Below are positions 8,778 to 49,776 of a DNA stretch of 64,000 nt, one piece after another. Numbering within the stretch: the stretch's first letter is position 1; each line of letters opens with the position of its first letter. The stretch is from UHGV virus genome UHGV-2031204. One strand, given 5' to 3'. Source of the stretch: a virus. The notes beneath the pieces are model-generated. The model worked only from the letters and a program-made list of their open reading frames with translations. It did not search any database and was not told where the DNA came from. The position numbers and the translations under genes are program-made.

Positions 8778-8818
8778 GGTAGTAGGGGCTTAGCCCCTAC
8801 TACCTTTTTTATTTTTTC
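8778..8818 (+). terminator. Rho-independent terminator
   Basis: GGTAGTAGGGG-CTTAG-CCCCTACTACC followed by a T-run. Confidence 0.7.
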
Positions 8819-8863
8819 TCAGATATATATTACCTAGAGGAGAGTGAAATTTACGTTCACTCC
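8816..8863 (+). promoter_or_regulatory. Conserved phage promoter-like motif plus 5'-UTR hairpin (copy 1 of 4)
   Basis: TCAGATATATATTACCTAGAGG followed by hairpin GGAGAGTGAA…TTCACTCC; related copies at 13205, 45418, 49705. Confidence 0.45.
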
Positions 8864-8891
8864 ATTAGTTATAGCCGAAAAGGAGGATTAG

Positions 8892-9743
8892 ATGCATTAC
8901 CCGTATTATCTCCCGCACATTCTAGCAAATAGGGACCCTGGTTATTACTACGAACAAACAGAAGGATCTTTTAATCGACTATACATTCGTGAATTTGATA
9001 CCGATGAAATGACGGATGACCAGTATCTGGAGTATCTAAAAGACCTTTACAGTTTTTCAAAATCGAATAAAGATGGCTTTGGACGTCTCTCAGTCATTAG
9101 CGATGGCGAATATCGTCATTTAGCTAAGCCTGTTACGTACCCTATTATTACGCGAGCTTATACATCGGATAGGCAATATCTTGCTGAACTAAAAATTCCT
9201 CTACGGATAGACGGGCCCCAAATTAGCTGTATGGAAGTAGAAATTCAACCGATTGCTGAAGACTACATCGAAGACTACTTCAAGAAAGCTAAAGACTTAC
9301 TCGACGAGGGTTTAAGTTTCTCTGAAGAAGGCACGATTTGTCTTCTCTCGCTACTCTCGAAGACTTATGTCACGGCAAATTTCCGTGTCTCTGATTCCAG
9401 TAACTACAATACACTTACTCCCTCTAAGACAAAACCGGTTTATTGGGACGATCGGTTAGTCGATAGACACCGTTGGCTTACTATCTTAGATAAAGTAAAA
9501 TTCGAACCCCCTAAACACACCGAAGACAATTTTACTTTATTACACAACTTCGACCCGATCTATATCCCGACGCATTTTGAACAAGCCTTACGTCATCGGT
9601 TGAAATATGTGTTGGAATTACGGTACGGGAAGATAAATGGGCTAACCTGTTCTGGTGAATTGGGAGAAGAAGAACGCGAGAAAATAAAAATCGTGTTTGA
9701 TAAGTTGGTTGAAGATTACATTAAGAAGGAAGGGCAATTATGA
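8892..9743 (+). CDS. Hypothetical protein
   Basis: 283-aa ORF with RBS AAAAGGAGG; no motif recognised. Confidence 0.55.
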   Translation: MHYPYYLPHILANRDPGYYYEQTEGSFNRLYIREFDTDEMTDDQYLEYLKDLYSFSKSNKDGFGRLSVISDGEYRHLAKPVTYPIITRAYTSDRQYLAELKIPLRIDGPQISCMEVEIQPIAEDYIEDYFKKAKDLLDEGLSFSEEGTICLLSLLSKTYVTANFRVSDSSNYNTLTPSKTKPVYWDDRLVDRHRWLTILDKVKFEPPKHTEDNFTLLHNFDPIYIPTHFEQALRHRLKYVLELRYGKINGLTCSGELGEEEREKIKIVFDKLVEDYIKKEGQL

Positions 9744-10183
9744 AACCAAATACTACTAACGGCATTATGCTACTTTGTGATTCTGAAACGTTAGCAAACC
9801 GTATTCGCGGTTTGATGCAAGTACGTTGGCAGCAAAAAGTTCTCGTGGATTACGATGCACCGTTTGTTCACATTACATGGTTGCCAGAAGCTAGTGATTT
9901 CAAAGAACGTATAACCACAAGAAGAATTAAAGAATGGTTATCGGCGATCATTAATAAACAGATTACCGTCATCAATTTCCAGTTGTTCGGTACCGCTGAA
10001 GAACATGAAATCTTAAAACAATGTTTAAGAGCGTTGGCTGTTTCCTTTTCTGTTCGTGGTAGCTGCTATACGGCTTACTTTATCGGTTCACTTGAGCTGT
10101 TTAAGAATACGCTAATGCTTCAGCTAAAAGATGACTACAAACTTTTAGATAAAATCGATTTCGAATTCCCAGGTATGATTTAA
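9740..10183 (+). CDS. Hypothetical protein
   Basis: 147-aa ORF, start overlaps upstream stop (translational coupling). Confidence 0.5.
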   Translation: MKPNTTNGIMLLCDSETLANRIRGLMQVRWQQKVLVDYDAPFVHITWLPEASDFKERITTRRIKEWLSAIINKQITVINFQLFGTAEEHEILKQCLRALAVSFSVRGSCYTAYFIGSLELFKNTLMLQLKDDYKLLDKIDFEFPGMI

Positions 10184-10194
10184 GGAACTATAAC

Positions 10195-11040
10195 ATGTTA
10201 CAGTTCGAACTCACCGAAGAAGAAAAAGTCATCACCAAGTTTAAAATTTCCCCTATCCCTACTGAAGAACAAATTAAGGAAATCGCTGAGCTACAAAAAA
10301 CGTACACTTTTTACTATAAAGTTAAATCGGAAACATTTAACATTTTCTGGGTAGAAGGTGATGTCGATTTTCCTAACAAACTCATTAGTGCGATTACGGA
10401 TATTTTAGTACGGTCTGTTGAGGTGTCTAAAGATCCAGAATTACCAGAACAGTCGACTTGTGGGCTAATGGACAAGCCAACTATGAAAGACACCGCTCGT
10501 TACACAAGCGAGTTTCCACTTACCCCTAAACAAGCAGATAAAATTGAACCAATACTACACCATTTTTTCAGCGATAAATTCACGTATGTGATTGAAGACA
10601 ACGTGCTTAAAGCGAGCTATAAATATACTGGTTATCGTGCTCTTATAGATCAACTATTGAAAGATATAGAGGACGAGAATATTCTGCTATTTACCGTTGA
10701 AAATATCACAGAAGCCGATGCTGATGAGCTTATTATCCGAGCCGTGGATGTTGAAAAAGAACTCGGTGGGTTTATAATTTGTCAAAGCAAGTATTTTAAA
10801 GATAATTTACATCTCCTGATCAGAAACAAACCGCGGTTTCTTAAAGCTTTGAAAACTCATGTGCGGGAAATTAAGAGATGTAATGAATCTTTTAAACACG
10901 TTTTCGAGAAATACGAAAAGGAAGTCAGCGAACGTCTTTCACGCCACCTTTTTGGGGAGTTCGAAAAACACGTTGACAAATACGCCCAGTTGTTTGATAA
11001 GTTTTGTAACGAGATGAGAGAAATTCGAAATCTTAAATAA
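10195..11040 (+). CDS. Hypothetical protein
   Basis: 281-aa ORF in tight co-directional array. Confidence 0.5.
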   Translation: MLQFELTEEEKVITKFKISPIPTEEQIKEIAELQKTYTFYYKVKSETFNIFWVEGDVDFPNKLISAITDILVRSVEVSKDPELPEQSTCGLMDKPTMKDTARYTSEFPLTPKQADKIEPILHHFFSDKFTYVIEDNVLKASYKYTGYRALIDQLLKDIEDENILLFTVENITEADADELIIRAVDVEKELGGFIICQSKYFKDNLHLLIRNKPRFLKALKTHVREIKRCNESFKHVFEKYEKEVSERLSRHLFGEFEKHVDKYAQLFDKFCNEMREIRNLK

Positions 11041-11082
11041 CGAAGGCTTAAACACCACACCATCTACCTAAAGGAGCATTAA

Positions 11083-11598
11083 ATGTCAGTAAATATTAAC
11101 ATGAATCTTTATACTAAACGTGAACGTCAGATTCTGGCGAATCAACCTGGCGTTACTGCCATCGACGGTAAACCTATTGACCGTTTAAAAGTTATCGTTG
11201 CGCGAAATTGCCATGAACGCGATTGGGATATCACCTACTTCCGTTGCTGTTCGGTCGCAAACGCGCTTACCCAACTCTCCAACTATCACCCAGGACCGCT
11301 ATTAAAAGACTGGGTTTGGTTAGTCCCTAAAACTCCCTCAGCAATTGAGTATCCCGCTGGGTTAGTCTATATTCGACCTGTCGCTTACCCAGAACGTCTG
11401 AAAGAGTATCTTGAAGTTATCTGGAACCGCCCTCGTAAAGAGCTGGTGTCGATTATTAATTTACTGCAACAGATCGATATCCCCGGTGTTTTGAATTTGA
11501 AACTCACGTCTCGCGATATTAACCAGGCTTACTGGGAACTGGAGTGGACTGAACCGAAATTCGAAAACACTAACCGTATTTTCTTGCACCGGGGGTAA
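11083..11598 (+). CDS. Hypothetical protein
   Basis: 171-aa ORF, RBS AAAGGAG. Confidence 0.5.
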   Translation: MSVNINMNLYTKRERQILANQPGVTAIDGKPIDRLKVIVARNCHERDWDITYFRCCSVANALTQLSNYHPGPLLKDWVWLVPKTPSAIEYPAGLVYIRPVAYPERLKEYLEVIWNRPRKELVSIINLLQQIDIPGVLNLKLTSRDINQAYWELEWTEPKFENTNRIFLHRG

Positions 11599-11600
11599 AA

Positions 11601-11882
11601 ATGTTAGATTGGTTGTTGGGGTTAATTAACTCACGTCAACAGGAGCTTTATAAAGAAAACACGCGATTACGGCAGGAACTTAGTAACAATCGCCAAACCA
11701 AACGACAATTAATTCGGATGGTAAAACAACAGGCGCGTTGTATACGGGATATCGATTATCAGTATCACCGTCTGAATACCTTAGACCCAACAACAAAAGC
11801 TTTAGGCAGTACGATTGGACATGCACGTAAAGTCAGTCACGATGCGTTAGTTCGATTAGATACAATAGAAGAGAAACTGTGA
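11601..11882 (+). CDS. Hypothetical small coiled-coil protein
   Basis: 93-aa ORF, heptad-like basic/Gln-rich sequence; followed by hairpin CTCTCCCTCGG-GAACG-CCGAGGGAG. Confidence 0.45.
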   Translation: MLDWLLGLINSRQQELYKENTRLRQELSNNRQTKRQLIRMVKQQARCIRDIDYQYHRLNTLDPTTKALGSTIGHARKVSHDALVRLDTIEEKL

Positions 11883-11925
11883 TTAGCTCTCCCTCGGGAA
11901 CGCCGAGGGAGATAAGGTGATTTAC

Positions 11926-12315
11926 ATGATGTGTTTATTTTACTTAAAAAGGCGTTTGTCATTAAAAGCCCAACTGTTTGTTAACGGGAAAGTTAAAAAC
12001 TGGCTGTGTGGTAAAAGAGTACAATATGTCGTTAAAGAAGGCGACTGGTATACGGAGGTTGTGACTTCCCCTAACGGTGAACTTATAAACGTTACTATTC
12101 GTGACGTTATGGTTAAGGTTGGCAGGGGAGGCGGTCGGTTGTTTGAATCGGAAACTATAAGAGTCGCTGCTAAACAATTGAAAGAAGGTCGAGTTATATT
12201 CAACTCTACTGCCCAGAAATACTACGACAATTTATTCGAGTGTCAACGAGCAATGGAGAGAATGACCCGTGAGATGCGAAAAATGCACATCACGGAGATC
12301 ACTATAGGAGTTTAA
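11926..12315 (+). CDS. Hypothetical protein
   Basis: Track ORF 11917..12315; ATG at 11926 sits 6 nt after RBS AAGGTG. Confidence 0.45.
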   Translation: MMCLFYLKRRLSLKAQLFVNGKVKNWLCGKRVQYVVKEGDWYTEVVTSPNGELINVTIRDVMVKVGRGGGRLFESETIRVAAKQLKEGRVIFNSTAQKYYDNLFECQRAMERMTREMRKMHITEITIGV

Positions 12316-12317
12316 CG

Positions 12318-12626
12318 ATGGAAAGTAAAATCACAAACACATCGGTACCTGAGAACATTGTCAACTATATTCTCCGCGGTGGGTTGTTAGAAGACAACAA
12401 AGAAACGTGCGATAAACTCGTTTCTCAACTACTGCCTATTCGTTCAGAATACTGCGAAATCGTTATCTTAGGTTCCGAGTATTGCGTACGCTCTTACTGC
12501 CGTCGTTTCGAAGCCTTACGCGTACCTCGTACGTTAGGCGGCGTGATCTTGCTGATTTCGTCTTTTCAAGACGCTCATGTGCGTGTGGCGACCTGGATTG
12601 CCAAAGGAGGCGATAGTGGTTTTTAA
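12318..12626 (+). CDS. Hypothetical Cys-containing small protein
   Basis: 102-aa ORF. Confidence 0.45.
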   Translation: MESKITNTSVPENIVNYILRGGLLEDNKETCDKLVSQLLPIRSEYCEIVILGSEYCVRSYCRRFEALRVPRTLGGVILLISSFQDAHVRVATWIAKGGDSGF

Positions 12627-12924
12627 ATTGCTAGGTTTTGGAAAATGCAAAGCGTGCGCAGAGCACGAAGAATTTATCAAGCTATTAGAAGAAACAGTTG
12701 AAACACAACAAGAACTTATCTCTGAATACCGTGCGAAAACAGGTTCAGTAGAATATTTGACTGTTCTCGTTTGTGCTATTGCTGAATTGGGTTGCGAGGG
12801 TAAATTGCCTAAAGAGGAGATATTAAAACTATTAAAAGAAAAAACGTCGTTTTACCGTAAAGATATTGAAGACTGTAAACGTGAGATTATAAGAGCGAAT
12901 TGGGAGATTATCAATGAAGCGTGA
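12616..12924 (+). CDS. Hypothetical protein with CKAC motif
   Basis: GTG at 12616 preceded by AAAGGAGG; track start 12577 would overlap upstream gene by 50 nt. Confidence 0.4.
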   Translation: MVFKLLGFGKCKACAEHEEFIKLLEETVETQQELISEYRAKTGSVEYLTVLVCAIAELGCEGKLPKEEILKLLKEKTSFYRKDIEDCKREIIRANWEIINEA

Positions 12925-13195
12925 AACTATTGTATTTTGTCAAAACGGTGATGTAAAACAGTACCGGGGTAAGAAGTTAATTCGTACGTTAGATTATCGT
13001 GAAGCAAAACGTTTCGTTGAAGAGTGCGCGTGGTTAATGCATTACGAAGGGAACTATCGTGCCATCTTAGAAGCGCCGCGTTTAGAACGTGCAGTTGCAC
13101 AGATGGCAATAGGTAATCCTAAGAACTGTTACCTGGCACGCAAACCAAAATACCTACAGCGTGTCTCGCTAGGCAGTTTTATTGCGGGATTTTAA
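12914..13195 (+). CDS. Hypothetical protein
   Basis: 93-aa ORF overlapping upstream stop. Confidence 0.45.
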   Translation: MKRETIVFCQNGDVKQYRGKKLIRTLDYREAKRFVEECAWLMHYEGNYRAILEAPRLERAVAQMAIGNPKNCYLARKPKYLQRVSLGSFIAGF

Positions 13196-13204
13196 TAAAA
13201 ATAA

Positions 13205-13247
13205 TTTCAGATATATATTACTTAGGTGAGAGTACAAAAGCTCTCAC
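13205..13247 (+). promoter_or_regulatory. Conserved promoter-like motif plus 5'-UTR hairpin (copy 2 of 4)
   Basis: TTTCAGATATATATTACTTAGGTGAGAGTACAAAAGCTCTCAC; near-identical over ~75 bp to 49700-49776. Confidence 0.5.
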
Positions 13248-13275
13248 TTAACGAACCATTTTAGGAGAATATACC

Positions 13276-13770
13276 ATGAACTTCACTAAACTTGATTACA
13301 CTAACGAATTAGTCGACAAAGAAAAATACAAATTCACAGTTGACTTGGGTTATGGGCTGTGGGACGTAGAAAAAGACGTCCTATACAAAGAATTCCGTGA
13401 GCAGTTCGGTGCTTTGTTCTGCGCAGGTTTCCGTAGAAACTCTATCGATGTCGGTTATAGCGCAACACCGTATACCGACGAAGAAATGTTTAAGCTGATA
13501 ACAGAGATTGTCGGAACACGTGTAGCCAAACGTCTTAACTATTCCAACGAACTTGTTTCGAAAGACCATTACAAATTCACCGTTAGATTACACGTACCCC
13601 TCACCGAAGAAGATAAGAATACACTCTATAAAGCCCTACAAACCGAATTCGGTAAAACACTCAAAGTCGGGTTCCGTAGTCGTAGTATCGACATCGGCAT
13701 TAGCGTAGACTTGTGCAGTGACGATGACCTTTACGAATTAGTTTCGGAAGTTATCAGAAAACATCTCTAA
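13276..13770 (+). CDS. Hypothetical protein built from two tandem ~80-aa internal repeats
   Basis: LDYTNELVDKEKYKFTVDLGY…GFRRNSIDVGYS versus LNYSNELVSKDHYKFTVRLHV…GFRSRSIDIGIS. Confidence 0.55.
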   Translation: MNFTKLDYTNELVDKEKYKFTVDLGYGLWDVEKDVLYKEFREQFGALFCAGFRRNSIDVGYSATPYTDEEMFKLITEIVGTRVAKRLNYSNELVSKDHYKFTVRLHVPLTEEDKNTLYKALQTEFGKTLKVGFRSRSIDIGISVDLCSDDDLYELVSEVIRKHL

Positions 13771-13825
13771 GCATAAATCAACTCATTATCACTTCGACAT
13801 GTAAAAACTAAAAAGGAAGATAAAA

Positions 13826-14602
13826 ATGAAAACTGTTGAGTTTAAAAATAACAGTCTTTGGGCATACTCGCACATCATTACGAGTTTCCTGAAAAACGTT
13901 ACTTCGCACCTCGCTTATCAGTTTTGTGGAAATGAGCTCACTATCGGTGGTTTTAACGAGGAAGAATTAAAACGTGCAAAAGAGTTCATTGACGATGTTC
14001 TTCATGGCGACGCGACGTGTTTAGTTGCGAGTTACGTTGCTAAAGACAAAGGAAGATTAAACATCATGGCAATCTTCAGGGCACACTCCGAGAAAGTATA
14101 CGAAGTTGAGAAGGTTAGTCATGGTGTTTATATTGTTTACTTTAAACGTTCAGCGGAGAAAAACGCTGATAAACTTCTGGAGTATTTCGACTGTAACCCA
14201 GGGGAAGGTATGGATGTCTATACGCTCGGTTATGATGGGGTACCTCACCGGAATAACCTTATTCGTATTGACGAACCTTTTTCAGTCAATGATAGCTCCA
14301 CGCCTATAGAGTTGGTTCTGGTATACAAAGATCGTTTCGCGCATTACGATTCTGATACTATTCAACGTGTCCTGAACAACGTTAATATTCAGTTTTCACA
14401 AACCGAGCACCTGGTACGTGCTTGTGTTAGGTCTAATGGCACAACATCATTTTTCCTCGAACGTCAAATCGTTTGGCAGACTTATCTGGCTTTGATGGAA
14501 GAACTCGATAGGATCGAACCAGTTCAGGTTGGTACAAATTGCTTATATTGGATAAAAACAACGGGGTTCAAGAATGAAAATACTCAATTCAGATTTGCGT
14601 GA
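13826..14602 (+). CDS. Hypothetical protein
   Basis: 258-aa ORF, RBS AAAGGAAG. Confidence 0.5.
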   Translation: MKTVEFKNNSLWAYSHIITSFLKNVTSHLAYQFCGNELTIGGFNEEELKRAKEFIDDVLHGDATCLVASYVAKDKGRLNIMAIFRAHSEKVYEVEKVSHGVYIVYFKRSAEKNADKLLEYFDCNPGEGMDVYTLGYDGVPHRNNLIRIDEPFSVNDSSTPIELVLVYKDRFAHYDSDTIQRVLNNVNIQFSQTEHLVRACVRSNGTTSFFLERQIVWQTYLALMEELDRIEPVQVGTNCLYWIKTTGFKNENTQFRFA

Positions 14603-15002
14603 TTATATCCGTAAGTACCCAGCCAGTATTCCTGTACTGGCTTCACTTACGCTTTCAGGTACTGACGTTAACGTCTTAACTGTGGAACAATTTCACGAGA
14701 TAATAAAAACCGCTTATAACTCCATTACCGCAACCTCAGTACGTAAACGTTGCGATTATCCCGACGGTCCTTTCGGGACAGAGATGTTCACAGACTACGC
14801 AGTTGCGTTTCTGTTAGGACGACACTGTCTCGATAAACTTAACACTGCTGTAGAAGGGGAAACAGTGACGGAAATAGTCAACGCTTGGCAGCAACGTATT
14901 CTGAGCGACCCTTACTGCCGCCAGGCGTTAAAACGAATGTCCACAACGGCGATTACAAACGACCAGCGTGCTTTAGAGTTCTTTAAGCACAATTACAGCT
15001 AA
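14574..15002 (+). CDS. Hypothetical protein, paralog of 16195..16626
   Basis: N-termini align (LNSDLRDYIRKYPASIPVLA vs LNDEIRNYIRNNPIALGVLA). Confidence 0.5.
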   Translation: MKILNSDLRDYIRKYPASIPVLASLTLSGTDVNVLTVEQFHEIIKTAYNSITATSVRKRCDYPDGPFGTEMFTDYAVAFLLGRHCLDKLNTAVEGETVTEIVNAWQQRILSDPYCRQALKRMSTTAITNDQRALEFFKHNYS

Positions 15003-15024
15003 TTTACCAAAAGGAAAAAATGAC

Positions 15025-16125: not shown

Positions 16126-16143
16126 TTAACTAAATTCGTACAA

Positions 16144-16175
16144 GGGGTGGTTTACCACCCCTCTATTATTGTATT
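16144..16175 (+). terminator. Putative terminator
   Basis: GGGGTGGTTTACCACCCC followed by T-rich tract. Confidence 0.5.
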
Positions 16176-16194
16176 TACCTAAAGGAGTATTAAA

Positions 16195-16626: not shown

Positions 16627-16633
16627 GCTCTCA

Positions 16634-16680
16634 CCGCTATAGACTTCGGTCTATAGCGGAATTAATTTTCTTTCCCTTTT
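16634..16680 (+). terminator. Rho-independent terminator
   Basis: CCGCTATAGAC-TTCG-GTCTATAGCGG followed by T-rich run. Confidence 0.7.
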
Positions 16681-17654: not shown

Positions 17655-18152
17655 ATGACCAGTCAAGAAACTATCTTCGACCTTATTAAAAAGGCTAACC
17701 CAGACGCTGAGTTCGACACCGCCAAAGTCACGCTGGGCGATCCGGTTGTGACCACCGGTACTTACAACACCGAAATTACGGTTGCGTCAATTAAGAATCT
17801 CGGTTACACTAACGAACAAACGTTCCAGTATAACCGTATTGACGCAGGTTTATATTTCCTGAACGTATTACCGAAGCTGTTGGTAGAATCTGCAACGACT
17901 ACCGCTGACTTACTGCCCGTCATTAACGAGCAGTACAGCCTAACCCTTACAGAAGACGACGTGTGGGTAGAGCAGGTCGGCGAGTTACCGTTAGACGGTA
18001 GCGCAATCGAACACGGTATTTTCTTCCGCCCTGAATGTTTAACCTGGGTAGGAGGTTTTACGGTGCGCGTTGCACGTAAAACTGCTGAAGATGCTGAACC
18101 TGCGCCAAAAGCAGCTAAAGCACGTACAACTCGTGCACGAAAATCCAAGTAA
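17655..18152 (+). CDS. Paralog-family member with basic Ala/Lys-rich C-terminal tail
   Basis: 165 aa; ends …EPAPKAAKARTTRARKSK. Confidence 0.55.
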   Translation: MTSQETIFDLIKKANPDAEFDTAKVTLGDPVVTTGTYNTEITVASIKNLGYTNEQTFQYNRIDAGLYFLNVLPKLLVESATTTADLLPVINEQYSLTLTEDDVWVEQVGELPLDGSAIEHGIFFRPECLTWVGGFTVRVARKTAEDAEPAPKAAKARTTRARKSK

Positions 18153-18157
18153 GATTT

Positions 18158-18193
18158 GGGTGGGGTAAAACCCACCCAACGTTTTTCTTTTTT
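18158..18193 (+). terminator. Rho-independent terminator
   Basis: GGGTGGGG-TAAAA-CCCCACCC plus T-run. Confidence 0.7.
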
Positions 18194-20082: not shown

Positions 20083-20167
20083 CTATTTCTAAGGCGTTTA
20101 TACCTTATTTTGTATAAAGACGCTTAGAATGCGTTTTACGCACGATTTGGCGGTTAAAATGAATATA

Positions 20168-20199
20168 CCCTACTCCTTAATAGGAGTAGGGTAGTTTTT
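20168..20199. terminator. Terminator between convergent genes
   Basis: CCCTACTCC-TTAAT-AGGAGTAGGG plus T-run; same stem family as 61200 and 61811. Confidence 0.65.
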
Positions 20200-42630: not shown

Positions 42631-42698
42631 TCTCTACTCCTATAATCCGTGGGCGTCGAAGTTCATACTATGACTTGAATCTATAGAGGAAAAGAGCT

Positions 42699-43961: not shown

Positions 43962-43966
43962 AGTAA

Positions 43967-44009
43967 CCTCCTACCCTCTAAGAGGGTAGGAGTAGCACGT
44001 TTTTTTTTC
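43967..44009. terminator. Bidirectional terminator
   Basis: CTCCTACCCTC-TAAG-AGGGTAGGAG flanked by A-run and T9 run. Confidence 0.7.
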
Positions 44010-44011
44010 GC

Positions 44012-44221
44012 TTAGTCTTTTTTGTAGACAATTGCGTTACCGTGCAGTTTGTTGTTGCCGGAAATACCGATAACTTTGAATGCGTCGCCGCCAATTTTTT
44101 CAGCTTCAGCAGCCAGCTTACCCGTTACATGATCAACGGTGTCGCCGAAAGCGCTAACGTTACCGATTTTCTTAAACTCTTCTGGAATATGCTCAGCAGA
44201 AGAGAACTCTTTAATAGACAT
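44012..44221 (-). CDS. DUF1471 (YhcN/BhsA-family)-like small protein without signal peptide
   Basis: …IGNVSAFGDTVDHVTGKLAAEAEKIGGDAFKVIGISGNNKLHGNAIVYKKD; ATG 44221 after RBS GGAGAG. Confidence 0.55.
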   Translation of the reverse strand: MSIKEFSSAEHIPEEFKKIGNVSAFGDTVDHVTGKLAAEAEKIGGDAFKVIGISGNNKLHGNAIVYKKD

Positions 44222-44427
44222 AACAGCTCTCCATTTCAAAAGGAAGGTGGTCTAAGACCGACGTGTGTTACAACCGAAGCATAAGATAGCTCCTCCCCGT
44301 AGGGAGGAGTAGAGTGCGCGAAAAAAGTGGCCTGCTTAACTAAACGATGGGTTTAAGAAAAGTGTTGATAAAAAGCTTTACCAACGTCAGGTCACAATAT
44401 ATAAACACAACGTAAGAAAAAGGGGAA

Positions 44428-45393
44428 TTATTGCGGAGGTGATGTCGGACCATGTTTACCTTGGTGAATGTGAACGCTAAAGGTAATACCGGAAATAATG
44501 GCATCTTTAACCGTAAAGACACCCACGCCTTCACCCGTACCACCGTATTTGAAGTTCTTAGCGACTTCCAGATTACCGGTGAACATCGCTTCCTTCCCTT
44601 CTTGTTTAAAGTTCGGCGTTTTGAACGTTGTCGAACTGCCCGCTTCTGTTAACCAGGTTTGTGTTTTAAACGTAACGGAATTCGCTGCTTCCGTATTGCG
44701 GACTTCACATTTTTCATTAATCGTTTTCGTTTCCAGGTTAATAGAACGCTTTGAATAAATGAACGCATCTTCTTTGTTGATGTTCACTTTTGAAAGCATC
44801 GCATTCTCAAACCCGAGATCATCTTCAACCGAGTTAATGTAATACTTGTTTCCTTTATGGTCAACGCACTGCCACGTACCGTTTGCATTATCAAACTGAA
44901 ACAACCACGCCGCTTTCTCGCCATTCACCATACTCGTTCTTAGCGTGATATGTTTGTCAATCGTCGAAACGTTCAACACATACGCATTGGACAAGTCATC
45001 CGCCATTTGGTTTTCAGGGTCAGCCGACCACGCATAAACCGCATCTTCTAATCGCTTAACGTTAGCGAAGTTCAGATCAATCCAAAAATAAATATCGGTT
45101 TTCCCCAAACGTAACAAGATAACGTAGTCTTCTCGTTTAACGTCAGGGGAATTAATTCGGTTGGAGTTAAACTTCCACCACTTTGCTGTTATCGTGTTAC
45201 CCGTCTTAATGGTTAGGTTATCTGTTGCACCAGACGTTTCATGCGTCTTTTCAGTTGCTGAAGAAACAGATTGTACCACGGTAGGGTTAGCAAAGTTAGT
45301 TTCAATTGGTATCACTTTTACCCGATCTGTACCACGGGGTTTGTCTTCCGCGACGATACCAATTGAGAAAAAATCAACACTGGATTTCTCCAT
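44428..45393 (-). CDS. Putative central tail spike (P2 gpV-like) with C-terminal HxH apex
   Basis: C-terminus …ITFSVHIHQGKHGPTSPPQ resembles the His-rich apex of P2 gpV (…LHTHKHPGDSGGTTGSPL). Confidence 0.5.
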   Translation of the reverse strand: MEKSSVDFFSIGIVAEDKPRGTDRVKVIPIETNFANPTVVQSVSSATEKTHETSGATDNLTIKTGNTITAKWWKFNSNRINSPDVKREDYVILLRLGKTDIYFWIDLNFANVKRLEDAVYAWSADPENQMADDLSNAYVLNVSTIDKHITLRTSMVNGEKAAWLFQFDNANGTWQCVDHKGNKYYINSVEDDLGFENAMLSKVNINKEDAFIYSKRSINLETKTINEKCEVRNTEAANSVTFKTQTWLTEAGSSTTFKTPNFKQEGKEAMFTGNLEVAKNFKYGGTGEGVGVFTVKDAIISGITFSVHIHQGKHGPTSPPQ

Positions 45394-45417
45394 CGGGACG
45401 TTCCTTAGATCGGAATT

Positions 45418-45473
45418 GATTTCAGATATATTTTACTTAAGTGAATAGGGACTGAAGTACCAGTTCAGTCCCT
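45418..45473 (+). promoter_or_regulatory. Conserved promoter-like motif plus hairpin (copy 3 of 4)
   Basis: GATTTCAGATATATTTTACTTAAGTGAA then hairpin GGGACTGAA-GTACCA-GTTCAGTCCC. Confidence 0.45.
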
Positions 45474-45714
45474 ACGGACACGTTACCCTTTTAGTACCTT
45501 TCGTTAAAGGTTACTAAAAAATTACATTATGTCCCTTTATTCTGCTACTCGGGATACCGGTAGGGGATAGGGGGCATTATGTATACGGATATAAATAGCG
45601 GAGGTATACGGAGTATACCGACATACTCTTCCCAGAGGAACGTAGTGACTTCCTTATACCTCTTTTACAATCCATAATAATAGCCTTCCCTTCATTGGGA
45701 TTAGCGAGTAAATC

Positions 45715-46449
45715 ATGAAAGAATTATTAGACGATATCTTTACCAATACCAGTTTAGAACTTTCTTCTACGGTGGTTAACGAACTAATAAAACAATCGCA
45801 ACCTGCTAAGTTAGGCGCTGCCAGGGTAGTTAACCCTAAAGATTATCTAGGCTGCGATATCATAGGTGGTACGATCGATGAGTACGCAATTGGTATTTAC
45901 CCCAACTGGGTCTTCTTTGTTCTTAATACCGAAACCGGTGTCATGTTAACCTACACGATGAGTAGTGATGCCGAACACGAAGTTGTAGCGGAACATATTC
46001 GCCACATCGCCAGCACGCCTATCTTTTCCGACGTTACGTTTATTGGGGGAAGCACTATGCTGACGTTATTCTCTTACTTCCCACTGTTTAGACATGGGGT
46101 AGGGTTAATCAAGCATGTAGAAAACCTTCCCGATAACGTAGAGTTATCACTGCTTGGCCCCGGCATCGATCTTTATCCATTAAAAGATAACGGTAAGTTA
46201 TACGGTTTACGTATCTATGTTTCTTGGTTAAAGGGATACCGCGTTATTGAACTGATTGCATCAGACTTAACAAAACAGATCCCAGAAGTAGAAACGATTT
46301 CTAAAGCCACCCACCTGGTTGAGATTAACCCAGACGATCCGTTTTTACAGTACCACAAAGAAATTGCCCTTCGTGGTATCGCGGCCGTAAAAGGGTGGGG
46401 CTGTGCTGAGATTACGAAGGGCTATCTGCTTCTAATTAAAACCGCGTAA
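45715..46449 (+). CDS. Paralog-family protein A (conserved C-terminal GW…LLF module)
   Basis: 244 aa; N-terminal MKELLDDIFTNT resembles 48282 ORF. Confidence 0.55.
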   Translation: MKELLDDIFTNTSLELSSTVVNELIKQSQPAKLGAARVVNPKDYLGCDIIGGTIDEYAIGIYPNWVFFVLNTETGVMLTYTMSSDAEHEVVAEHIRHIASTPIFSDVTFIGGSTMLTLFSYFPLFRHGVGLIKHVENLPDNVELSLLGPGIDLYPLKDNGKLYGLRIYVSWLKGYRVIELIASDLTKQIPEVETISKATHLVEINPDDPFLQYHKEIALRGIAAVKGWGCAEITKGYLLLIKTA

Positions 46450-46478
46450 TTAAGAAAACCGAAAAAGGAGAATATACC

Positions 46479-47033
46479 ATGTTTCAAACTGAACTGAAAA
46501 ATGAAATTATCCAAACCCTTGAAAAGGGCGTAGGCGAACATTTCTTTGTCCGTCCTTATACCGTACTGACCAATACCATTATTCAGCCAGGTGCGATGAT
46601 AGTAGGGGTGAGTGTACAAGCTGTGGAGGAAACCCCACTGCGTCGCAACATCACACGTAAAACCCATATCCCGTTTAGAACAGGTTTTACAGATTACTTT
46701 CAGAGCTTACTGAAAGATAGCGTTTGGAAAACAGGTAGCTTCTTCCACGAAGGGAAGACTTCCACGCTGGTTTATAAAGAGAACACCAAGTATCTGGTCG
46801 ATTTTCTCTTAGCGCGTCAGTATGCTTTCTTTCCAACCCCTACTGACTGCACCACAGACAACCCAGGTAAGTTATTAAACCAAAGCGAAGCCGAGGCACT
46901 CTTTACAAGACTTCGGAATGAGCAGTGCGATGTTGACGACTGGGAAACATTGATCGCGGTCGCTAAAGCCCACGGTTGGTATACCGTACGTAAACTCGGT
47001 CAGCAGTTGTTGTTCTTAGCTTACCCTGCTTAA
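46479..47033 (+). CDS. Paralog-family protein B
   Basis: 184 aa; C-terminal AKAHGWYTVRKLGQQLLFLAYPA. Confidence 0.55.
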   Translation: MFQTELKNEIIQTLEKGVGEHFFVRPYTVLTNTIIQPGAMIVGVSVQAVEETPLRRNITRKTHIPFRTGFTDYFQSLLKDSVWKTGSFFHEGKTSTLVYKENTKYLVDFLLARQYAFFPTPTDCTTDNPGKLLNQSEAEALFTRLRNEQCDVDDWETLIAVAKAHGWYTVRKLGQQLLFLAYPA

Positions 47034-47062
47034 GTAACGAAAAAACCTAAAGGAGAGTAAAA

Positions 47063-48214
47063 ATGCGAAATATTATTTCTAAACCAGGACATGTCAAAAT
47101 CCTAAAAGAACTGATGGACAGATGCTATAATCGGACTTGGTCACTACCAAGCTTAACCATCGAGTCTTCATTACAACGTGAGTTGTTTGGTTATAACTTG
47201 GGCTGTTGTGTACTTACTGAATACAATGAGATTATCGCGCCTGTCGATGTCTGTACTTACGATGAAGAAATTGAAGGTTACAAGTTCGCGGTTTACACAA
47301 ATTGTGGACTAAATTACCGTAAACTCGTTGTTAGGGAAAAGAGTAGCAGCCGGAAGATTATGTTTAAGGTCTTCCCAAGTGGTAAAGTCAGTAATTTATG
47401 TTTTCAGCTTGAGAAAGTGCCCTTTCACGGTGCGGACATTTTAACTAAACCGGAGCTCGCGTTATTAAGCGGGTTAATTGGCTTTGAAGCAAAAACCATC
47501 AAAGTTGAGCAGGAACTTACACGAAACGATTTCGGGTCAACTTGGTACGAAAGTTTCTTCCGCTACGAAATGTTAAGTGATAAAGCTATCAAACTCACTT
47601 ACCGTTCTACCGACGACATCGTTTACCACATTTTAATTAGCGGCGAACCCCACCAGATTATTGAAGTCGAAGGAGAAAAATCCGTGCGTACCTTAAAAGA
47701 TGAATTAACTGATTTTGTTAACAAAATTGATAACGTGGGTATCAGTGAATTATTATTCCCGATTCAACATCCAGAGTTGCTTGACGAGAAATGTGAAAAC
47801 ATGATTATGGCGGTGCATTTACTTCCTGACCATCTTGCTATCTACCGTACACTTTCTAAGAACCAACTTAAAGTGTGGTGTCTGTTAAAAGGTCTTTTAA
47901 CAGAGGCGGGGTGGTCGTGTAGTGTAGATGTTAACTGTGAAGGAGTTGCGTTCTTCATCACAATAGGCAATCGTAGTTTTTCTGTCGATTTACCTACTCG
48001 CAGCTATTACGATTTCTTCCCGACCGCAGAAGGACGTACTGAAAAAGAACCCGCATTACTGCTCAGTGCTGAGGAGTCCAATGCGTTAATGGCGAAACTG
48101 AAGGCGAAAGACGAGAAGCTGGATGCTTTACATCTACCTATAATCGGGAAAGACTACGGTTGGGCTGACGTGCAAAAATACGGCAGTCAGCTGTTGTTTG
48201 TTGCTGACCTCTAA
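47063..48214 (+). CDS. Paralog-family protein C
   Basis: 383 aa; C-terminal GKDYGWADVQKYGSQLLFVADL. Confidence 0.55.
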   Translation: MRNIISKPGHVKILKELMDRCYNRTWSLPSLTIESSLQRELFGYNLGCCVLTEYNEIIAPVDVCTYDEEIEGYKFAVYTNCGLNYRKLVVREKSSSRKIMFKVFPSGKVSNLCFQLEKVPFHGADILTKPELALLSGLIGFEAKTIKVEQELTRNDFGSTWYESFFRYEMLSDKAIKLTYRSTDDIVYHILISGEPHQIIEVEGEKSVRTLKDELTDFVNKIDNVGISELLFPIQHPELLDEKCENMIMAVHLLPDHLAIYRTLSKNQLKVWCLLKGLLTEAGWSCSVDVNCEGVAFFITIGNRSFSVDLPTRSYYDFFPTAEGRTEKEPALLLSAEESNALMAKLKAKDEKLDALHLPIIGKDYGWADVQKYGSQLLFVADL

Positions 48215-48281
48215 TAAGTGAAAATACACTTTCTCTAACTGCCGCGCTTTAGTCGCGGCTTTTGTTAAGAAGGAAATAGAA

Positions 48282-49055
48282 ATGAAAGTCCATTTAGACG
48301 ACATCTTTAAAACCGAACCGTATATGATCGAAGGCCCGCTATCATCACTACTATTTGCCGATAGATTAGATCGTACGCTGCAATTACAATCGGTCGAAAC
48401 TGCACCCGTTGACGATGTAGAGCGTTACGAGCGCATCAACTATACGCGTGGTGAGTATCGTCGCTATAAGCCAAATTCACTAAGCATCAAGCTTTGGAAT
48501 GTGAGCACAGGTAAAGTATTAACTTATCGCGCTGTTGGTAGTTATTACATTCAACAAGCCAAAGAGTGGTTAGAAAAAGTTAAAGAACTGAACTTCGATC
48601 TACTGAGCAAAAAACTGCGCGATCATAACGCCAGTTTGCCGATACGTAATTATTTCTCCACGATTGAAAATAGTCGTTGTTTCGTTTCACGTGAAACCAC
48701 GATATTACCTGGGGATGATGTTCAGACAACACTAAAAGATGTGGTTGTGAAGAAAATCTTTCATGAATCTGAACACGTTGGATTTCGTATCTATTTAACG
48801 CATAAGAGACCATTTACCGTGATTCACGTTGTTACCGCACCCGAAGGCTCAGCGATTATTCGTGAACTTCCTGATGCTCGAGACCGTTGCCCTAATGAGC
48901 CGCTTTATTTAATGTCAGGAACAAAATCAACCGCGTTGATGTCCCGTTACAGCATGTTAGATGTTGTTGACGCTGCTATGAAACTAGGTTGGAAAGAAGT
49001 GCAGCAACATGGTAAACAATTGCTGTTTATTGCCGATGTAAAACTTAATCAATAG
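48282..49055 (+). CDS. Paralog-family protein D
   Basis: 257 aa; C-terminal AMKLGWKEVQQHGKQLLFIADV. Confidence 0.55.
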   Translation: MKVHLDDIFKTEPYMIEGPLSSLLFADRLDRTLQLQSVETAPVDDVERYERINYTRGEYRRYKPNSLSIKLWNVSTGKVLTYRAVGSYYIQQAKEWLEKVKELNFDLLSKKLRDHNASLPIRNYFSTIENSRCFVSRETTILPGDDVQTTLKDVVVKKIFHESEHVGFRIYLTHKRPFTVIHVVTAPEGSAIIRELPDARDRCPNEPLYLMSGTKSTALMSRYSMLDVVDAAMKLGWKEVQQHGKQLLFIADVKLNQ

Positions 49056-49067
49056 TGAGGTGGTACC

Positions 49068-49646
49068 GTGTACCGATTAATAGAAATGCGAAAAGACGTT
49101 TGGTTGGAAAACCTCGTCGATGGGGAGCTTGAGGGAATAGAGCTTTCCTTACCAGAAAGAGCGGACACGGTATTGGTCTTTCTGATAAAACAGGCAGCGA
49201 AGGAACCGGTAGGAATCTTCAGCGTGGACTATAAAGACCCACGAGGGATTCATTTACGGAACATTTGCAGTGGTTTAGAAAGCTTACCGGCTAATCCGTT
49301 CTTAAACTACGCAAAACGTAAACTCCAGCCAGGGCAACATCTCTGGGTAGTTCTAGCGCCTGATACACGCATTATACGTGACGACCAGACTGCGTTTGTC
49401 CAAGCAACGAAAGTCAGTTTGTACAATCCTAATGCGGATCGTACCGATATGCCGTTTACAATCACCTTAGAAGACGATGGAACGCAAGAGGGTATTGAGG
49501 CAATTACGGAATTAGTAAACTCTTATCCGGTAGCATCTATTGAGTTAGAAAACCCAAACCGATTACCGTTGGGTGATTTACTCGAATGGATTGAGCTGAA
49601 TACCGAGTTCCTCATTAACTCCCGGCAGTACCGGTTCGATGTATAA
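49068..49646 (+). CDS. Hypothetical protein
   Basis: 192-aa ORF, GTG start after RBS GAGGTGG. Confidence 0.45.
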   Translation: MYRLIEMRKDVWLENLVDGELEGIELSLPERADTVLVFLIKQAAKEPVGIFSVDYKDPRGIHLRNICSGLESLPANPFLNYAKRKLQPGQHLWVVLAPDTRIIRDDQTAFVQATKVSLYNPNADRTDMPFTITLEDDGTQEGIEAITELVNSYPVASIELENPNRLPLGDLLEWIELNTEFLINSRQYRFDV

Positions 49647-49650
49647 CATC

Positions 49651-49683
49651 GGTGGGGGTAAACCCCCACCTTTTATTTTTTTG
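49651..49683 (+). terminator. Rho-independent terminator
   Basis: GGTGGGGG-TAAA-CCCCCACC plus T-run. Confidence 0.7.
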
Positions 49684-49704
49684 TTCGTTAATATTAAAAA
49701 TAAT

Positions 49705-49747
49705 TTCAGATATATATTACTTAAGTGAGAGTACAAAAGCACTCACT
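49705..49747 (+). promoter_or_regulatory. Conserved promoter-like motif plus 5'-UTR hairpin (copy 4 of 4)
   Basis: TTTCAGATATATATTACTTAAGTGAGAGTACAAAAGCACTCAC; near-duplicate of 13205-13247. Confidence 0.5.
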
Positions 49748-49776
49748 TAACGAAAACCATTTTAGGAGAACTAAAG

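What the first reader, a model, noticed from the sequence alone, without database searches (positions are those of the whole stretch)
8816..49776. Conserved promoter/5'-UTR cassette repeated four times
A TTTCAGATATAT(A/T)TTAC(T/C)TA motif followed about 5 nt later by a stable hairpin occurs at 8816, 13205, 45418 and 49705. Copies 2 and 4 are near-identical over ~75 bp through the RBS (…CATTTTAGGAGAA). This looks like a phage-specific promoter class with a leader structure, and the duplicates are potential recombination sites.
Basis: seen in the sequence. Interest (0 to 1): 0.5.

Follow-up and report, generated by a model that had tools for sequence, protein, structure and literature searches.

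The report
Jumbo-phage early promoter cassettes
These are four copies of the conserved start signal that a giant phiKZ/SPN3US-like phage's own injected RNA polymerase most likely uses to switch on its first genes, each followed by a small selected RNA hairpin; this is a known kind of element, found here in a previously undescribed phage.

Summary
TTTCAGATATATWTTACYTA occurs at 8817, 13205, 45420 and 49704, against 0.01 sites expected by chance. All four sites are on the + strand, intergenic and followed by a hairpin. Copies 2 and 4 are 74/79 identical through the RBS.

The window comes from a new SPN3US/Erskinevirus-like jumbo phage, and the motif is the only DNA it shares with GenBank phages. 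The same element occurs 4-9 times per genome in about 86 related phages. It has the same architecture as the experimentally validated phiKZ early promoter read by the virion RNA polymerase (A-rich tract, GAT-n-TATATTAC-N5-TG). The close relatives encode the vRNAP subunit gp241. The downstream genes are ORFans.

The hairpin is under selection. Native arm pairs fold better than swapped chimeras (p=3e-5), and copy 3 shows three compensatory pairs and no broken pair. phiKZ lacks this hairpin, so it is specific to this clade. Copy 4 is a mosaic whose breakpoint lies exactly at the promoter core, which resembles T4-type PeSL cassette shuffling.

This is a new member of a known kind. The transcription start and the hairpin's role are inferred, not shown.

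The parts
8777..8815 (+). Intrinsic terminator (13-bp stem plus T-run) immediately upstream of copy 1
   Evidence: stem 8777-8805, 8 G-C pairs, tail TTTTTATTTT.
8817..8843 (+). Copy 1 promoter core, TCTCAGATATATATTAC-CTAGAGGAGA. The inferred TSS is G8840.
   Evidence: The TSS is inferred from the near-invariant G at offset 23 and from the phiKZ geometry.
8842..8862 (+). Copy 1 leader hairpin: 7-bp stem GAGTGAA/TTCACTC with a 7-nt loop. The RBS AAGGAGG lies at 8880-8886 and the ATG at 8892.
   Evidence: This is the weakest of the four hairpins (z -1.2). It is conserved in the relative locus L037.
13205..13231 (+). Copy 2 promoter core, a perfect match to the 27-mer family consensus. The inferred TSS is G13228. 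There is no terminator upstream; the preceding gene ends at 13195.
13222..13251 (+). Copy 2 leader hairpin: TTAGGTGAGAGT-acaaaa-GCTCTCACTTAA. The RBS AGGAG lies at 13263-13267 and the ATG at 13276.
   Evidence: -16.3 kcal/mol, z -5.0. Only 2% of arm-swap chimeras fold as well.
45420..45446 (+). Copy 3 promoter core, TTTCAGATATATTTTAC-TTAAGTGAAT, 27 nt from the divergent baseplate gene ATG at 45393. The inferred TSS is G45443.
   Evidence: The site is conserved at the same position in four close relatives.
45446..45474 (+). Copy 3 leader hairpin: 11-bp stem TAGGGACTGAA/TTCAGTCCCTA
   Evidence: Across 5 sequences it is 100% paired, with 3 pairs changed on both sides and none broken.
45475..45714 (+). 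Long leader of copy 3. It holds a second, imperfect hairpin at about 45489-45519 and a clade-wide conserved G-box/GCGGAGG/hairpin/CCGACATxCTT element at about 45563-45660. The first ORF of at least 60 aa starts at 45715.
   Evidence: The function of this leader is unknown.
49651..49680 (+). Intrinsic terminator immediately upstream of copy 4
   Evidence: stem 49651-49670, 7 G-C pairs, tail TTTTATTTTT.
49704..49730 (+). Copy 4 promoter core (1 mismatch to the 27-mer). The inferred TSS is G49727.
   Evidence: It is syntenic with the SPN3US site at 165683, upstream of the SMC/SbcC-like gene.
49721..49750 (+). Copy 4 leader hairpin, of the copy 2 type with one mismatch in the stem. The RBS AGGAG lies at 49764-49768 and the ATG at 49777.
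49732..50182 (+). Segment present in the window but replaced by 33 bp in the 90-94% identical relative. It comprises a copy-2-type leader, a 123-aa ORF (49777-50148) and a spacer. The left junction is the promoter core and the right junction is the RBS of gene 50195.

Best explanation
The four sites are early-class promoters of a phiKZ-like (chimallivirus-type) jumbo phage. [quoted passage not shown]

The recognition element runs from an A/T-rich tract (about -12 relative to the motif start) through TTTCAGATATATATTAC to YTAGGTGAGA. Transcription most likely starts at the near-invariant G 6-7 nt after TTAC, at window positions 8840, 13228, 45443 and 49727. It runs rightward into operons of small ORFan genes.

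The first 5-35 nt of each transcript fold into a hairpin that is kept by compensatory evolution. Its most likely job is to protect or mark the 5' end of early mRNAs against 5'-end-dependent decay by the host. That role is an inference.

The whole unit (terminator, promoter, hairpin leader, RBS) is about 40-80 bp of portable homology. It also serves as a crossover point for gain, loss and exchange of promoter-proximal ORFans. This explains why copy 4 carries a copy-2-type leader and an extra gene.

Shown here: the motif, its strand and position bias, its conservation across the clade, its shared architecture with phiKZ, the hairpin covariation, and the mosaic junction. Inferred: recognition by the vRNAP, the exact transcription start, the hairpin's function, and the recombination mechanism.
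For: Motif statistics
- Four sites were found against 0.01 expected.
- All four lie in the gaps between genes and are co-directional with the next gene.

Identity of the phage
- The giant virion proteins are 41-50% identical to those of the SPN3US and Erskinevirus phages (PHROG matches).
- Gene order follows SPN3US from about 106 to 180 kb.
- The motif is the only stretch that megablast matches in GenBank phages.

Family-wide element
- blastn finds it in 86 phage records at 392 places, 4-7 per genome, almost always in unannotated DNA.
- SPN3US has 9 sites, all on the + strand and all just upstream of a gene.
- An exact-match scan of IMG/VR found multiple copies per contig in contigs longer than 200 kb.
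- Positions are syntenic: c4 corresponds to SPN3US 165683, and c3 is kept 27 nt from the baseplate gene in four relatives.

Same architecture as validated phiKZ early promoters
- Upstream of phiKZ gp005, gp006, gp031, gp036 and gp054 the sequence reads aaaaataaTTaAGATnTATATTAC-N5-TG. TATATTAC occurs 7 times on the + strand and never on the - strand in 50 kb.
- The literature states that phiKZ early promoters are AT-rich, centred about 10 bp upstream of the TSS, used by the vRNAP, and independent of host RNAP and of new protein synthesis (PMC7598289; PMC8244752; PMC10914365; PMC11512511).
- The information profile shows a near-invariant G at offset 23.

The polymerase is present in the lineage
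- SPN3US gp241 is a virion-packaged vRNAP subunit (PMC5694885).
- Homologues with 76-77% identity are encoded by the window's 90-94% identical relatives.

Other support
- The downstream genes are ORFans, as reported for early genes.
- Sigma-70-like sites are not enriched: 29 found against 27 expected, and 24 against 32.

Hairpin
- Mean z is -1.4, and 42% of sites have z below -1.5.
- Native arm pairs fold at -7.7 kcal/mol against -5.7 for chimeras, p=2.7e-5.
- c3 is 100% paired, with 3 compensatory pairs.
- The sense strand folds better than the antisense strand, p=0.013.

Mosaic
-.
Against: - No transcript data exist for this phage, and I could read none for any SPN3US-type phage. The transcription start and the early timing are extrapolated from phiKZ and 201phi2-1.
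- The window itself contains no RNAP gene. The presence of a vRNAP is inferred from relatives.
- In c2, c4 and their orthologues the stem includes 6 nt upstream of the inferred +1 G. The start may therefore lie further upstream, or the longer stem may form only in read-through RNA.
- The c1 hairpin is not significant on its own (z -1.2).
- The sense/antisense asymmetry is modest.
- phiKZ promoters lack the hairpin, so the hairpin is not needed for vRNAP promoters in general.
- The copy 4 mosaic is a single case, and the donor of its leader and ORF was not identified.
Confidence: 0.8

Rival explanations
1. The sites are host sigma-70 early promoters with an UP-like A/T tract, used by the bacterial RNA polymerase as in T4-type phages.
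For: The core contains a -10-like TATATT and sits behind an A/T-rich tract. Copy 2 scores 9/12 as TTAATA-16-TATATT in the consensus scan. Some Erwinia-phage copies have TTGACT or TTGATT 17 nt upstream of TATATT.
Against: - Only one of the four copies reaches even the weak sigma-70 threshold, and sigma-70-like sites are not enriched in the window.
- The best-conserved positions (TTTCAGA, the C of TTAC, and GTG at offsets 21-23) are not sigma-70 determinants.
- The phiKZ motif of the same architecture is used independently of host RNAP (PMC7598289).
Confidence: 0.06
2. The sites are promoters of a later class (middle or late), read by the non-virion RNA polymerase rather than by the injected enzyme.
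For: Timing was not measured. Some genes further downstream in these units, such as the SbcC/SMC-like gene 3.9 kb after c4, are replication or repair genes rather than host-takeover genes.
Against: The published phiKZ middle motif is TACT centred at about -22 and preceded by an A-rich repeat (PMC8244752). The late motif is T-3ATG+1 (PMC7598289). The window motif instead matches the early TATATTAC class. The genes immediately downstream are ORFans.
Confidence: 0.06
3. The motif is not a promoter. It would be a repeated operator for a phage DNA-binding protein, an RNA processing or stability signal within longer transcripts, or the footprint of a small mobile element.
For: The ATATATAT core is self-complementary. 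Copy 2 has no terminator upstream, so it is also transcribed as RNA by read-through from the copy 1 unit. The cassettes take part in rearrangements.
Against: - The strict strand bias argues for a directional initiation signal: 4/4 sites in the window, 9/9 in SPN3US, and 7 against 0 in phiKZ.
- Copies 1 and 4 sit directly after strong terminators.
- The distance to the RBS and ATG is fixed at about 54-58 nt in three copies.
- The positions are syntenic across phages whose proteins are only 41-50% identical, unlike a mobile element.
- There are no terminal repeats or transposase genes.
Confidence: 0.05
4. The hairpin is part of promoter recognition at the DNA level, like the extruded hairpins of N4 vRNAP promoters, or it is a transcription attenuator. 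It would then not be an mRNA-stabilising leader.
For: In c2, c4 and their orthologues the stem reaches up to the base after TTAC, upstream of the inferred start. In many Erwinia-phage copies the hairpin is followed by TTTT. phiKZ shows frequent premature termination in 5'UTRs (PMC10914365).
Against: - The hairpin's position (0-10 nt after TTAC), stem length (5-15 bp) and sequence vary between sites. N4 hairpins are conserved and centred at -11 (PMC4496689).
- phiKZ promoters work without a hairpin.
- The four window hairpins have no T-run after them.
- The sense strand folds better than the antisense strand, and 63 G-U pairs are used. This favours an RNA structure.
Confidence: 0.15

Closest known systems
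phiKZ and 201phi2-1 early promoters (vRNAP-dependent; Ceyssens 2014, as cited in PMC7598289, PMC8244752, PMC10914365 and PMC11512511)
   Same: They share the core TATATTAC, preceded by GAT-n and an A-rich tract and followed by N5-TG. Both are intergenic, strand-biased, present in several copies per genome and placed upstream of small hypothetical genes. In both cases the phage lineage encodes a split multisubunit vRNAP.
   Different: - The window clade has a longer and more rigid consensus (TTTCAGATATATATTACYTAGGTGAGA).
- It has fewer copies per genome: 9 in SPN3US against 28-32 in phiKZ.
- It has a selected hairpin directly downstream, which phiKZ sites lack.
- No TSS mapping exists for this clade in the literature I could read.
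AR9/PBS1 early promoters (Bacillus jumbo phages with a vRNAP; PMC5312081)
   Same: The logic is the same: an over-represented AT-rich motif that can be predicted from sequence and lies upstream of early operons, read by an injected multisubunit RNAP.
   Different: The consensus differs, the genome contains uracil, and the lineage is distant. No sequence similarity to the window motif was tested or seen.
PeSL cassettes of T4-type phages (promoter-early stem-loop; PMC2839356, PMC4122927)
   Same: Both are repeated regulatory cassettes of about 50-100 bp that combine an early promoter with a stem-loop. Both flank ORFans in variable regions and serve as crossover points for gene insertion, deletion and replacement. 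The reported crossovers lie between the -10 element and the SD or ATG, which matches the junctions of the copy 4 mosaic.
   Different: PeSL promoters are sigma-70 promoters read by the host RNAP, and the PeSL stem-loop is a G/C-rich terminator. Here the terminator is a separate upstream element, the promoter is phage-specific, and the hairpin is a transcribed leader without a T-run. Mini-circles were not tested.
N4 virion RNAP hairpin promoters (PMC4496689)
   Same: In both systems an injected virion RNA polymerase transcribes early genes, and an inverted repeat is associated with the promoter.
   Different: The N4 enzyme is a single-subunit polymerase. Its hairpin is conserved, centred at -11, extruded by supercoiling and directly recognised, with the start 8 nt downstream. 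Here the conserved core is not flanked by inverted repeats, and the hairpin lies downstream and varies in sequence.
5'-terminal stabilising stem-loops of bacterial mRNAs (ompA-type; from my own knowledge of Emory, Bouvet and Belasco 1992 and of later work on RNase E and RppH)
   Same: In both cases a hairpin sits at or within a few nucleotides of the 5' end of an mRNA, upstream of the RBS.
   Different: Its position relative to the real 5' end is inferred here, and no stability data exist.

Membership tests
vRNAP-dependent early promoters of phiKZ-like (chimallivirus-type) jumbo phages | The phage encodes and packages a split multisubunit virion RNA polymerase | tested here: met
   The window has no RNAP gene, because it is syntenic with SPN3US 106-180 kb, which also has none. 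The 90-94% identical relatives encode a full-length homologue, 76-77% identical, of SPN3US gp241, which is a virion 'head ejection, vRNAP' subunit (PMC5694885). Packaging in this particular phage cannot be tested.
vRNAP-dependent early promoters of phiKZ-like (chimallivirus-type) jumbo phages | A conserved AT-rich core of about 10 nt, of the type found at validated early promoters | tested here: met
   The window core ATATAT(A/T)TTAC contains the phiKZ TATATTAC (TATTTTAC in copy 3, one mismatch). It has the same flanks: an A-rich tract and GAT-n upstream, and N5-TG downstream.
vRNAP-dependent early promoters of phiKZ-like (chimallivirus-type) jumbo phages | Several copies per genome, intergenic, co-directional with and just upstream of operons of small hypothetical genes | tested here: met
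   This holds for 4/4 sites in the window and 9/9 in SPN3US. The downstream genes have no Pfam match, and their PHROG matches are absent or of unknown function.
vRNAP-dependent early promoters of phiKZ-like (chimallivirus-type) jumbo phages | Primary 5' ends about 10 nt downstream of the motif centre that appear immediately after infection, independent of host RNAP (rifampicin) and of protein synthesis | not testable with these tools
   This needs transcript mapping. The start at offset 23 is inferred.
PeSL mobile regulatory cassettes (T4-type phages) | A strong sigma-70-like early promoter | tested here: not met
   There is no consistent -35 element. Only c2 reaches 9/12, and sigma-70-like sites are not enriched. 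The conserved positions are not sigma-70 determinants.
PeSL mobile regulatory cassettes (T4-type phages) | A stem-loop within the cassette that acts as a transcription terminator | tested here: not met
   The hairpins downstream of the motif have no T-run in the four window copies. Terminators exist upstream of c1 and c4, but they are separate elements.
PeSL mobile regulatory cassettes (T4-type phages) | Association with ORFans, and with indels or replacements whose junctions fall inside the cassette | tested here: met
   The copy 4 mosaic has its left junction at the promoter core and its right junction at the next RBS. ORF123 homologues always sit first behind a motif copy, at non-syntenic loci. 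The first gene after c3 is unique to this phage, and a micro-ORF has been lost from the c3 leader.
N4-type vRNAP hairpin promoters | A conserved hairpin centred at about -11 that is itself the recognition element, with the start about 8 nt downstream | tested here: not met
   The conserved core is not flanked by inverted repeats. The hairpin lies downstream of the core, and its sequence, length and offset vary. The N4 features come from PMC4496689.
Known RNA families (Rfam 15) for the leader hairpins | A match to a curated covariance model at the gathering score | tested here: not met
   There were 0 matches in the whole window and no tRNA or tmRNA.

The most novel reading that the evidence does not exclude
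In the enterobacterial nucleus-forming jumbo phages (SPN3US, Erskinevirus and this lineage), the vRNAP early promoter has evolved into a composite portable cassette of terminator, promoter, 5'-terminal hairpin and RBS. This cassette would do two things not described for these phages. First, its structured 5' end, kept by covariation, would be a dedicated determinant of early-mRNA survival or handling. Examples would be resistance to RNase E and RppH before the phage neutralises the degradosome, or recognition for export or translation from the early infection vesicle. Second, it would be the homology that drives PeSL-like shuffling of host-takeover ORFans between genomic sites and between phages.
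Probability: 0.3. Interest if true: 0.55.

Novelty: new member of a known kind. Interest (0 to 1): 0.35.

Why it matters
- It marks where the earliest transcription units begin in an uncharacterised jumbo phage. That flags about 25-30 ORFan genes as candidate host-takeover or anti-defence genes.
- The vRNAP promoter is conserved from phiKZ to enterobacterial phages, so a single 27-mer can annotate early operons across about 86 genomes.
- The rigid consensus and the near-invariant G give concrete templates for biochemistry and structural work on the vRNAP, which has not been characterised on promoters.
- The hairpin and the mosaic junction are testable leads on early-mRNA stability and on how these phages exchange accessory genes.

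Tried and rejected
- Rfam (gathering threshold) and ARAGORN on the whole window found nothing. The hairpins are not a known RNA family or a tRNA.
- Text searches for the motif strings TATATTAC and CAGATATATATTAC found no relevant paper, because logos are published as figures.
- The primary phiKZ paper (PMC4178840) and Lavysh 2016 (PMC13189113) are not held. The supplements with TSS tables are not held either. The TSS offset therefore could not be calibrated directly, and I could not check whether the SPN3US-type logo has already been printed.
- Sigma-70 reading: rejected on the consensus scans.
- N4-like hairpin promoter: rejected on geometry.
- I asked whether the conserved G-box element in the copy 3 leader is the published conserved 5'UTR sRNA upstream of phiKZ gp182. 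The window's baseplate gene has no homologue in that phiKZ region, so the idea was rejected as far as it could be tested.
- A search for relatives of the first gene after copy 3 found none.
- ORF123 is not a paralogue of the first gene after copy 2. The c2/c4 identity is therefore confined to the promoter and leader.

Full report
**1. Observation.**
I read the four regions directly. A search for TTTCAGATATATWTTACYTA with up to 3 mismatches returns exactly four sites: 8817 (one mismatch), 13205, 45420 and 49704. All are on the + strand. 0.01 sites are expected from dinucleotide-preserving shuffles. Loosening the search to a 27-mer family consensus with up to 7 mismatches adds no further site.

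Each site lies in one of the few gaps between genes and is co-directional with the next gene. The gaps are 8772-8891, 13196-13275, 45394-45714 and 49647-49776.

A hairpin follows each site. Three are strong (c2, c3 and c4, with z between -4.8 and -5.1). One is weak (c1, 7 bp, z -1.2).

Copies 2 and 4 are 74/79 identical from the A-tract through the RBS, whereas any other pair of copies shares only 18-28 nt.

**2. Where the window comes from.**
Megablast of 8-14 kb against 50,697 GenBank phage records gave only short hits, and every one of them was to the motif itself (window 13194-13261). The hits were in Erwinia phages phiEaH2, Asesino and Stratton and in Salmonella phages of the SPN3US group.

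At protein level the 1401-aa virion protein is 41-50% identical to homologues in those phages. The three giant paralogues match the PHROG families of their virion proteins. Gene order follows SPN3US from about 106 to 180 kb: radical-SAM gene, three giant virion proteins, baseplate protein, SMC/SbcC-like gene.

The window is therefore a piece of a new jumbo phage of the SPN3US/Erskinevirus type. Its nearest relatives are uncultivated IMG/VR contigs (3300045988_113438 and others) at 90-94% nucleotide identity.

**3. The motif is a clade-wide element.**
An exact-pattern scan of IMG/VR found 84 loci, with several copies per contig in contigs longer than 200 kb. blastn with the copy 2 cassette finds 392 places in 86 phage records, typically 4-7 per genome and almost always with no annotated feature underneath. 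The hosts include Erwinia, Salmonella, Serratia (PCH45), Cronobacter (CR5), Vibrio (pVa-21) and Proteus.

In the complete SPN3US genome a degenerate scan finds 9 sites. All are on the + strand and all sit immediately upstream of a gene (read against the annotation).

Positions are conserved although the flanking DNA is not. Copy 4, which lies 3.9 kb upstream of the SbcC/SMC-like gene, corresponds to SPN3US 165683, which lies 3.2 kb upstream of its SMC gene. Copy 3 sits 27 nt from the baseplate ATG in four close relatives.

An information profile over 52 non-redundant sites shows the conserved block to be gAtTaaAAAt.A-TTTCAGATATATATTAC-cTAgGTGAgA. Only the 17-nt core was used to retrieve the sites, so the flanks are unbiased. 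The profile has a near-invariant G at offset 23.

**4. What it is.**
The review of jumbo-phage RNA polymerases states that every RNAP-encoding jumbo phage has a conserved AT-rich motif of about 10 nt upstream of its presumed early operons. The motif is centred near -10 of the TSS. Wherever transcripts were profiled, it proved to be the early promoter used by the injected vRNAP, independent of host RNAP and of protein synthesis (PMC7598289). dRNA-seq and ONT-cappable-seq confirm this for phiKZ and 201phi2-1 (PMC8244752; PMC10914365; PMC11512511).

I tested the link directly on the first 50 kb of phiKZ. The regions upstream of gp005, gp006, gp031, gp036 and gp054 read aaaaataaTTaAGATnTATATTAC-N5-TG, and TATATTAC occurs 7 times on the + strand and never on the - strand. 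PHIKZ054 is explicitly reported to have an early-motif primary TSS. The window motif, AAAAATAATTTCAGATATATATTAC-ttagg-TG, has the same architecture.

The enzyme is present in the lineage. SPN3US gp241 is a virion-packaged vRNAP subunit (PMC5694885), and the window's nearest relatives encode a homologue 76-77% identical to it.

The ten genes immediately downstream of the four sites have no Pfam match and no functional PHROG match. This fits the reports that early motifs precede hypothetical proteins.

Sigma-70-like sites are not enriched in the window (29 found against 27 expected, and 24 against 32). Only copy 2 even reaches the weak threshold. Strong terminators sit directly upstream of copies 1 and 4.

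**5. Transcription start (inferred).**
If the invariant G at offset 23 is +1, TATATTAC occupies -14 to -7, which agrees with 'centred at about -10'. The starts would then be at 8840, 13228, 45443 and 49727, giving leaders of 52, 48, 272 and 50 nt. I could not calibrate this against published phiKZ coordinates, because the papers and supplements that hold them are not available.

One point is unresolved. In copy 2, copy 4 and their orthologues the stem also pairs the 6 nt upstream of that G. The start may therefore be a few nucleotides further upstream, or the longer stem may form only in read-through RNA.

**6. The hairpin.**
- Across 74 unique family sites, the 45 nt after TTAC fold better than shuffles (mean z -1.4; 42% below -1.5). 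The stems mostly begin 0-6 nt after TTAC.
- I swapped the 3' halves between 56 non-redundant sites. Native combinations fold better than chimeras (-7.7 against -5.7 kcal/mol, Wilcoxon p=2.7e-5). For window copies 2, 3 and 4, at most 4% of chimeras do as well. The 3' arm therefore tracks its own 5' arm.
- For copy 3, five closely related sequences keep all 11 pairs (100% paired). Three pairs change on both sides, none is broken, and the loop is free to vary. Sliding the partner columns gives only 20-49% pairing.
- The sense strand folds slightly better than the antisense strand (p=0.013), and 63 G-U pairs are used. This favours an RNA structure, but not decisively.
- phiKZ early promoters show no consistent hairpin (mean z -0.37, n=12), so this is a feature of the enterobacterial clade.
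- The four window hairpins have no T-run after them, so they are not terminators. Many Erwinia-phage copies do have TTTT after the stem, which leaves room for attenuation there.

My preferred reading is a 5'-proximal stabilising or marking structure on early mRNAs. This rests on general knowledge of 5'-end-dependent decay in enterobacteria, not on data from this system.

**7. Why copies 2 and 4 are nearly identical.**
Against the 90-94% identical relative, colinearity breaks exactly at the end of the copy 4 promoter core. Window 49732-50182 replaces 33 bp of the relative, whose own leader runs straight into the orthologue of window gene 50195. The window segment holds the copy-2-type leader, a 123-aa ORF and a spacer.

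Homologues of that ORF (52-60% amino-acid identity) sit at a different, non-syntenic locus in the relatives and in SPN3US (223349). In every case the homologue is the first gene behind its own terminator, motif variant and a different hairpin leader.

Copy 4 is therefore a mosaic of a resident promoter, a copy-2-type leader and an imported ORF. The junctions fall at the promoter core and at the next RBS.

This is the geometry reported for PeSL-mediated shuffling in T4-type phages, where crossovers fall between the -10 element and the SD or ATG (PMC2839356; PMC4122927). The cassettes here fail two defining PeSL features, the sigma-70 promoter and the terminator stem-loop. They work like PeSLs in this respect but are not members of that family.

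Recombination between copies 2 and 4 within one genome would remove 36.5 kb that includes the structural genes, so it should be lethal.

**8. Copy 3.**
Copy 3 is the most divergent copy (TATTTTAC) and has a leader of about 272 nt. The relatives carry a micro-ORF of about 25 aa after the hairpin, which is deleted in the window. Further downstream lies an element conserved even in SPN3US and phiEaH2, which lack a motif at that spot. It consists of a G-box, TATG, GCGGAGG, a small hairpin with 3 of 5 pairs compensatory, and CCGACaTCCTT.

This element may be a second, later-class promoter with a structured leader. phiKZ late promoters carry TATG, and PHIKZ054 has tandem early and middle starts. I did not resolve this.

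The first gene after copy 3 has no relative in IMG/VR.

**9. Verdict.**
The element belongs to a known kind, the vRNAP early promoters of phiKZ-like jumbo phages, and is found here in a new phage. Two modestly new observations came out of the check: a clade-specific leader hairpin under selection, and promoter-anchored cassette exchange.

I put the promoter identity at about 0.8. I put the hairpin's stabilising role at about 0.4, and cassette-mediated recombination as the origin of the copy 4 mosaic at about 0.6.

Noticed in passing
window 45563-45660 (+), inside the copy 3 leader; alignment A4: A non-coding element is conserved across the whole SPN3US/Erskinevirus clade, including phages that lack a promoter copy at this spot. 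It reads GGGGGTAGGGGG-N3-TATG ... GCGGAGG-[small hairpin, 3 of 5 pairs compensatory]-CCGACaTCCTT. The two boxes resemble an SD and an anti-SD sequence. The TATG resembles the phiKZ late-promoter start. It has no Rfam match, and its strand and function are unknown.
   Followed up: partly
window 45475-45525, compared with L107, L108, L109 and L116 (about 3300-3400 on the - strand): Close relatives encode a micro-ORF of about 25 aa right after the copy 3 hairpin (for example MSTEKKSGLDEVIELFKRYNPAIPR). It appears frameshifted in L116. In the window it is deleted, and an imperfect 13-bp hairpin (about 45489-45519) stands in its place.
   Followed up: partly
window 10195-11040; L037 5753-6160: There are whole-gene indels against the 90-94% identical relative within the copy 1 operon. 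The 281-aa ORF at 10195-11040 is absent from the relative. The relative has about 400 bp extra between the positions matching window 11883 and 11916. The putative early regions are hyperplastic.
   Followed up: no
window 20166-20193, 61198-61219, 61809-61834 (also 18156-18179): Several terminators, some of them bidirectional, share the same stem sequence CCCTACTCC...GGAGTAGGG. They form a repeated terminator family, reminiscent of the conserved terminator motifs reported for phiKZ and 201phi2-1. Terminator-like sites are about twice as frequent as in shuffles.
   Followed up: no
L087 (SPN3US) 15610: A degenerate motif copy (6 mismatches) lies upstream of a 617-aa gene. That gene is followed at 17704 by an RNAP beta-like gene that is not one of the five virion subunits. 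This fits the idea that early promoters drive non-virion RNAP genes.
   Followed up: partly
window 13222-13227 and 49721-49726, with their partners 13246-13251 and 49745-49750: In copies 2 and 4 (and in L031, L037, L059 and SPN3US 113982) the stem pairs TTAGGT with ACTTAA. These 6 nt lie upstream of the G that best fits the phiKZ start geometry. This remains unexplained: the start may be different, or the stem may form in read-through RNA.
   Followed up: partly
window 1-64000: Apart from the promoter motif, the window has no megablast-level similarity to any of 50,697 GenBank phage records in the region tested (8-14 kb). The nearest relatives are uncultivated IMG/VR contigs from sample 3300045988. 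This suggests an undescribed genus-level lineage.
   Followed up: partly
window 51079-52022: This stretch is about 69% identical to loci from several small IMG/VR contigs (L027, L042, L048, L055, L083; 19-51 kb). These contigs also carry one exact copy of the 17-mer motif about 250 bp from the shared stretch. They may be non-jumbo or fragmentary phages that share a gene and its promoter.
   Followed up: no
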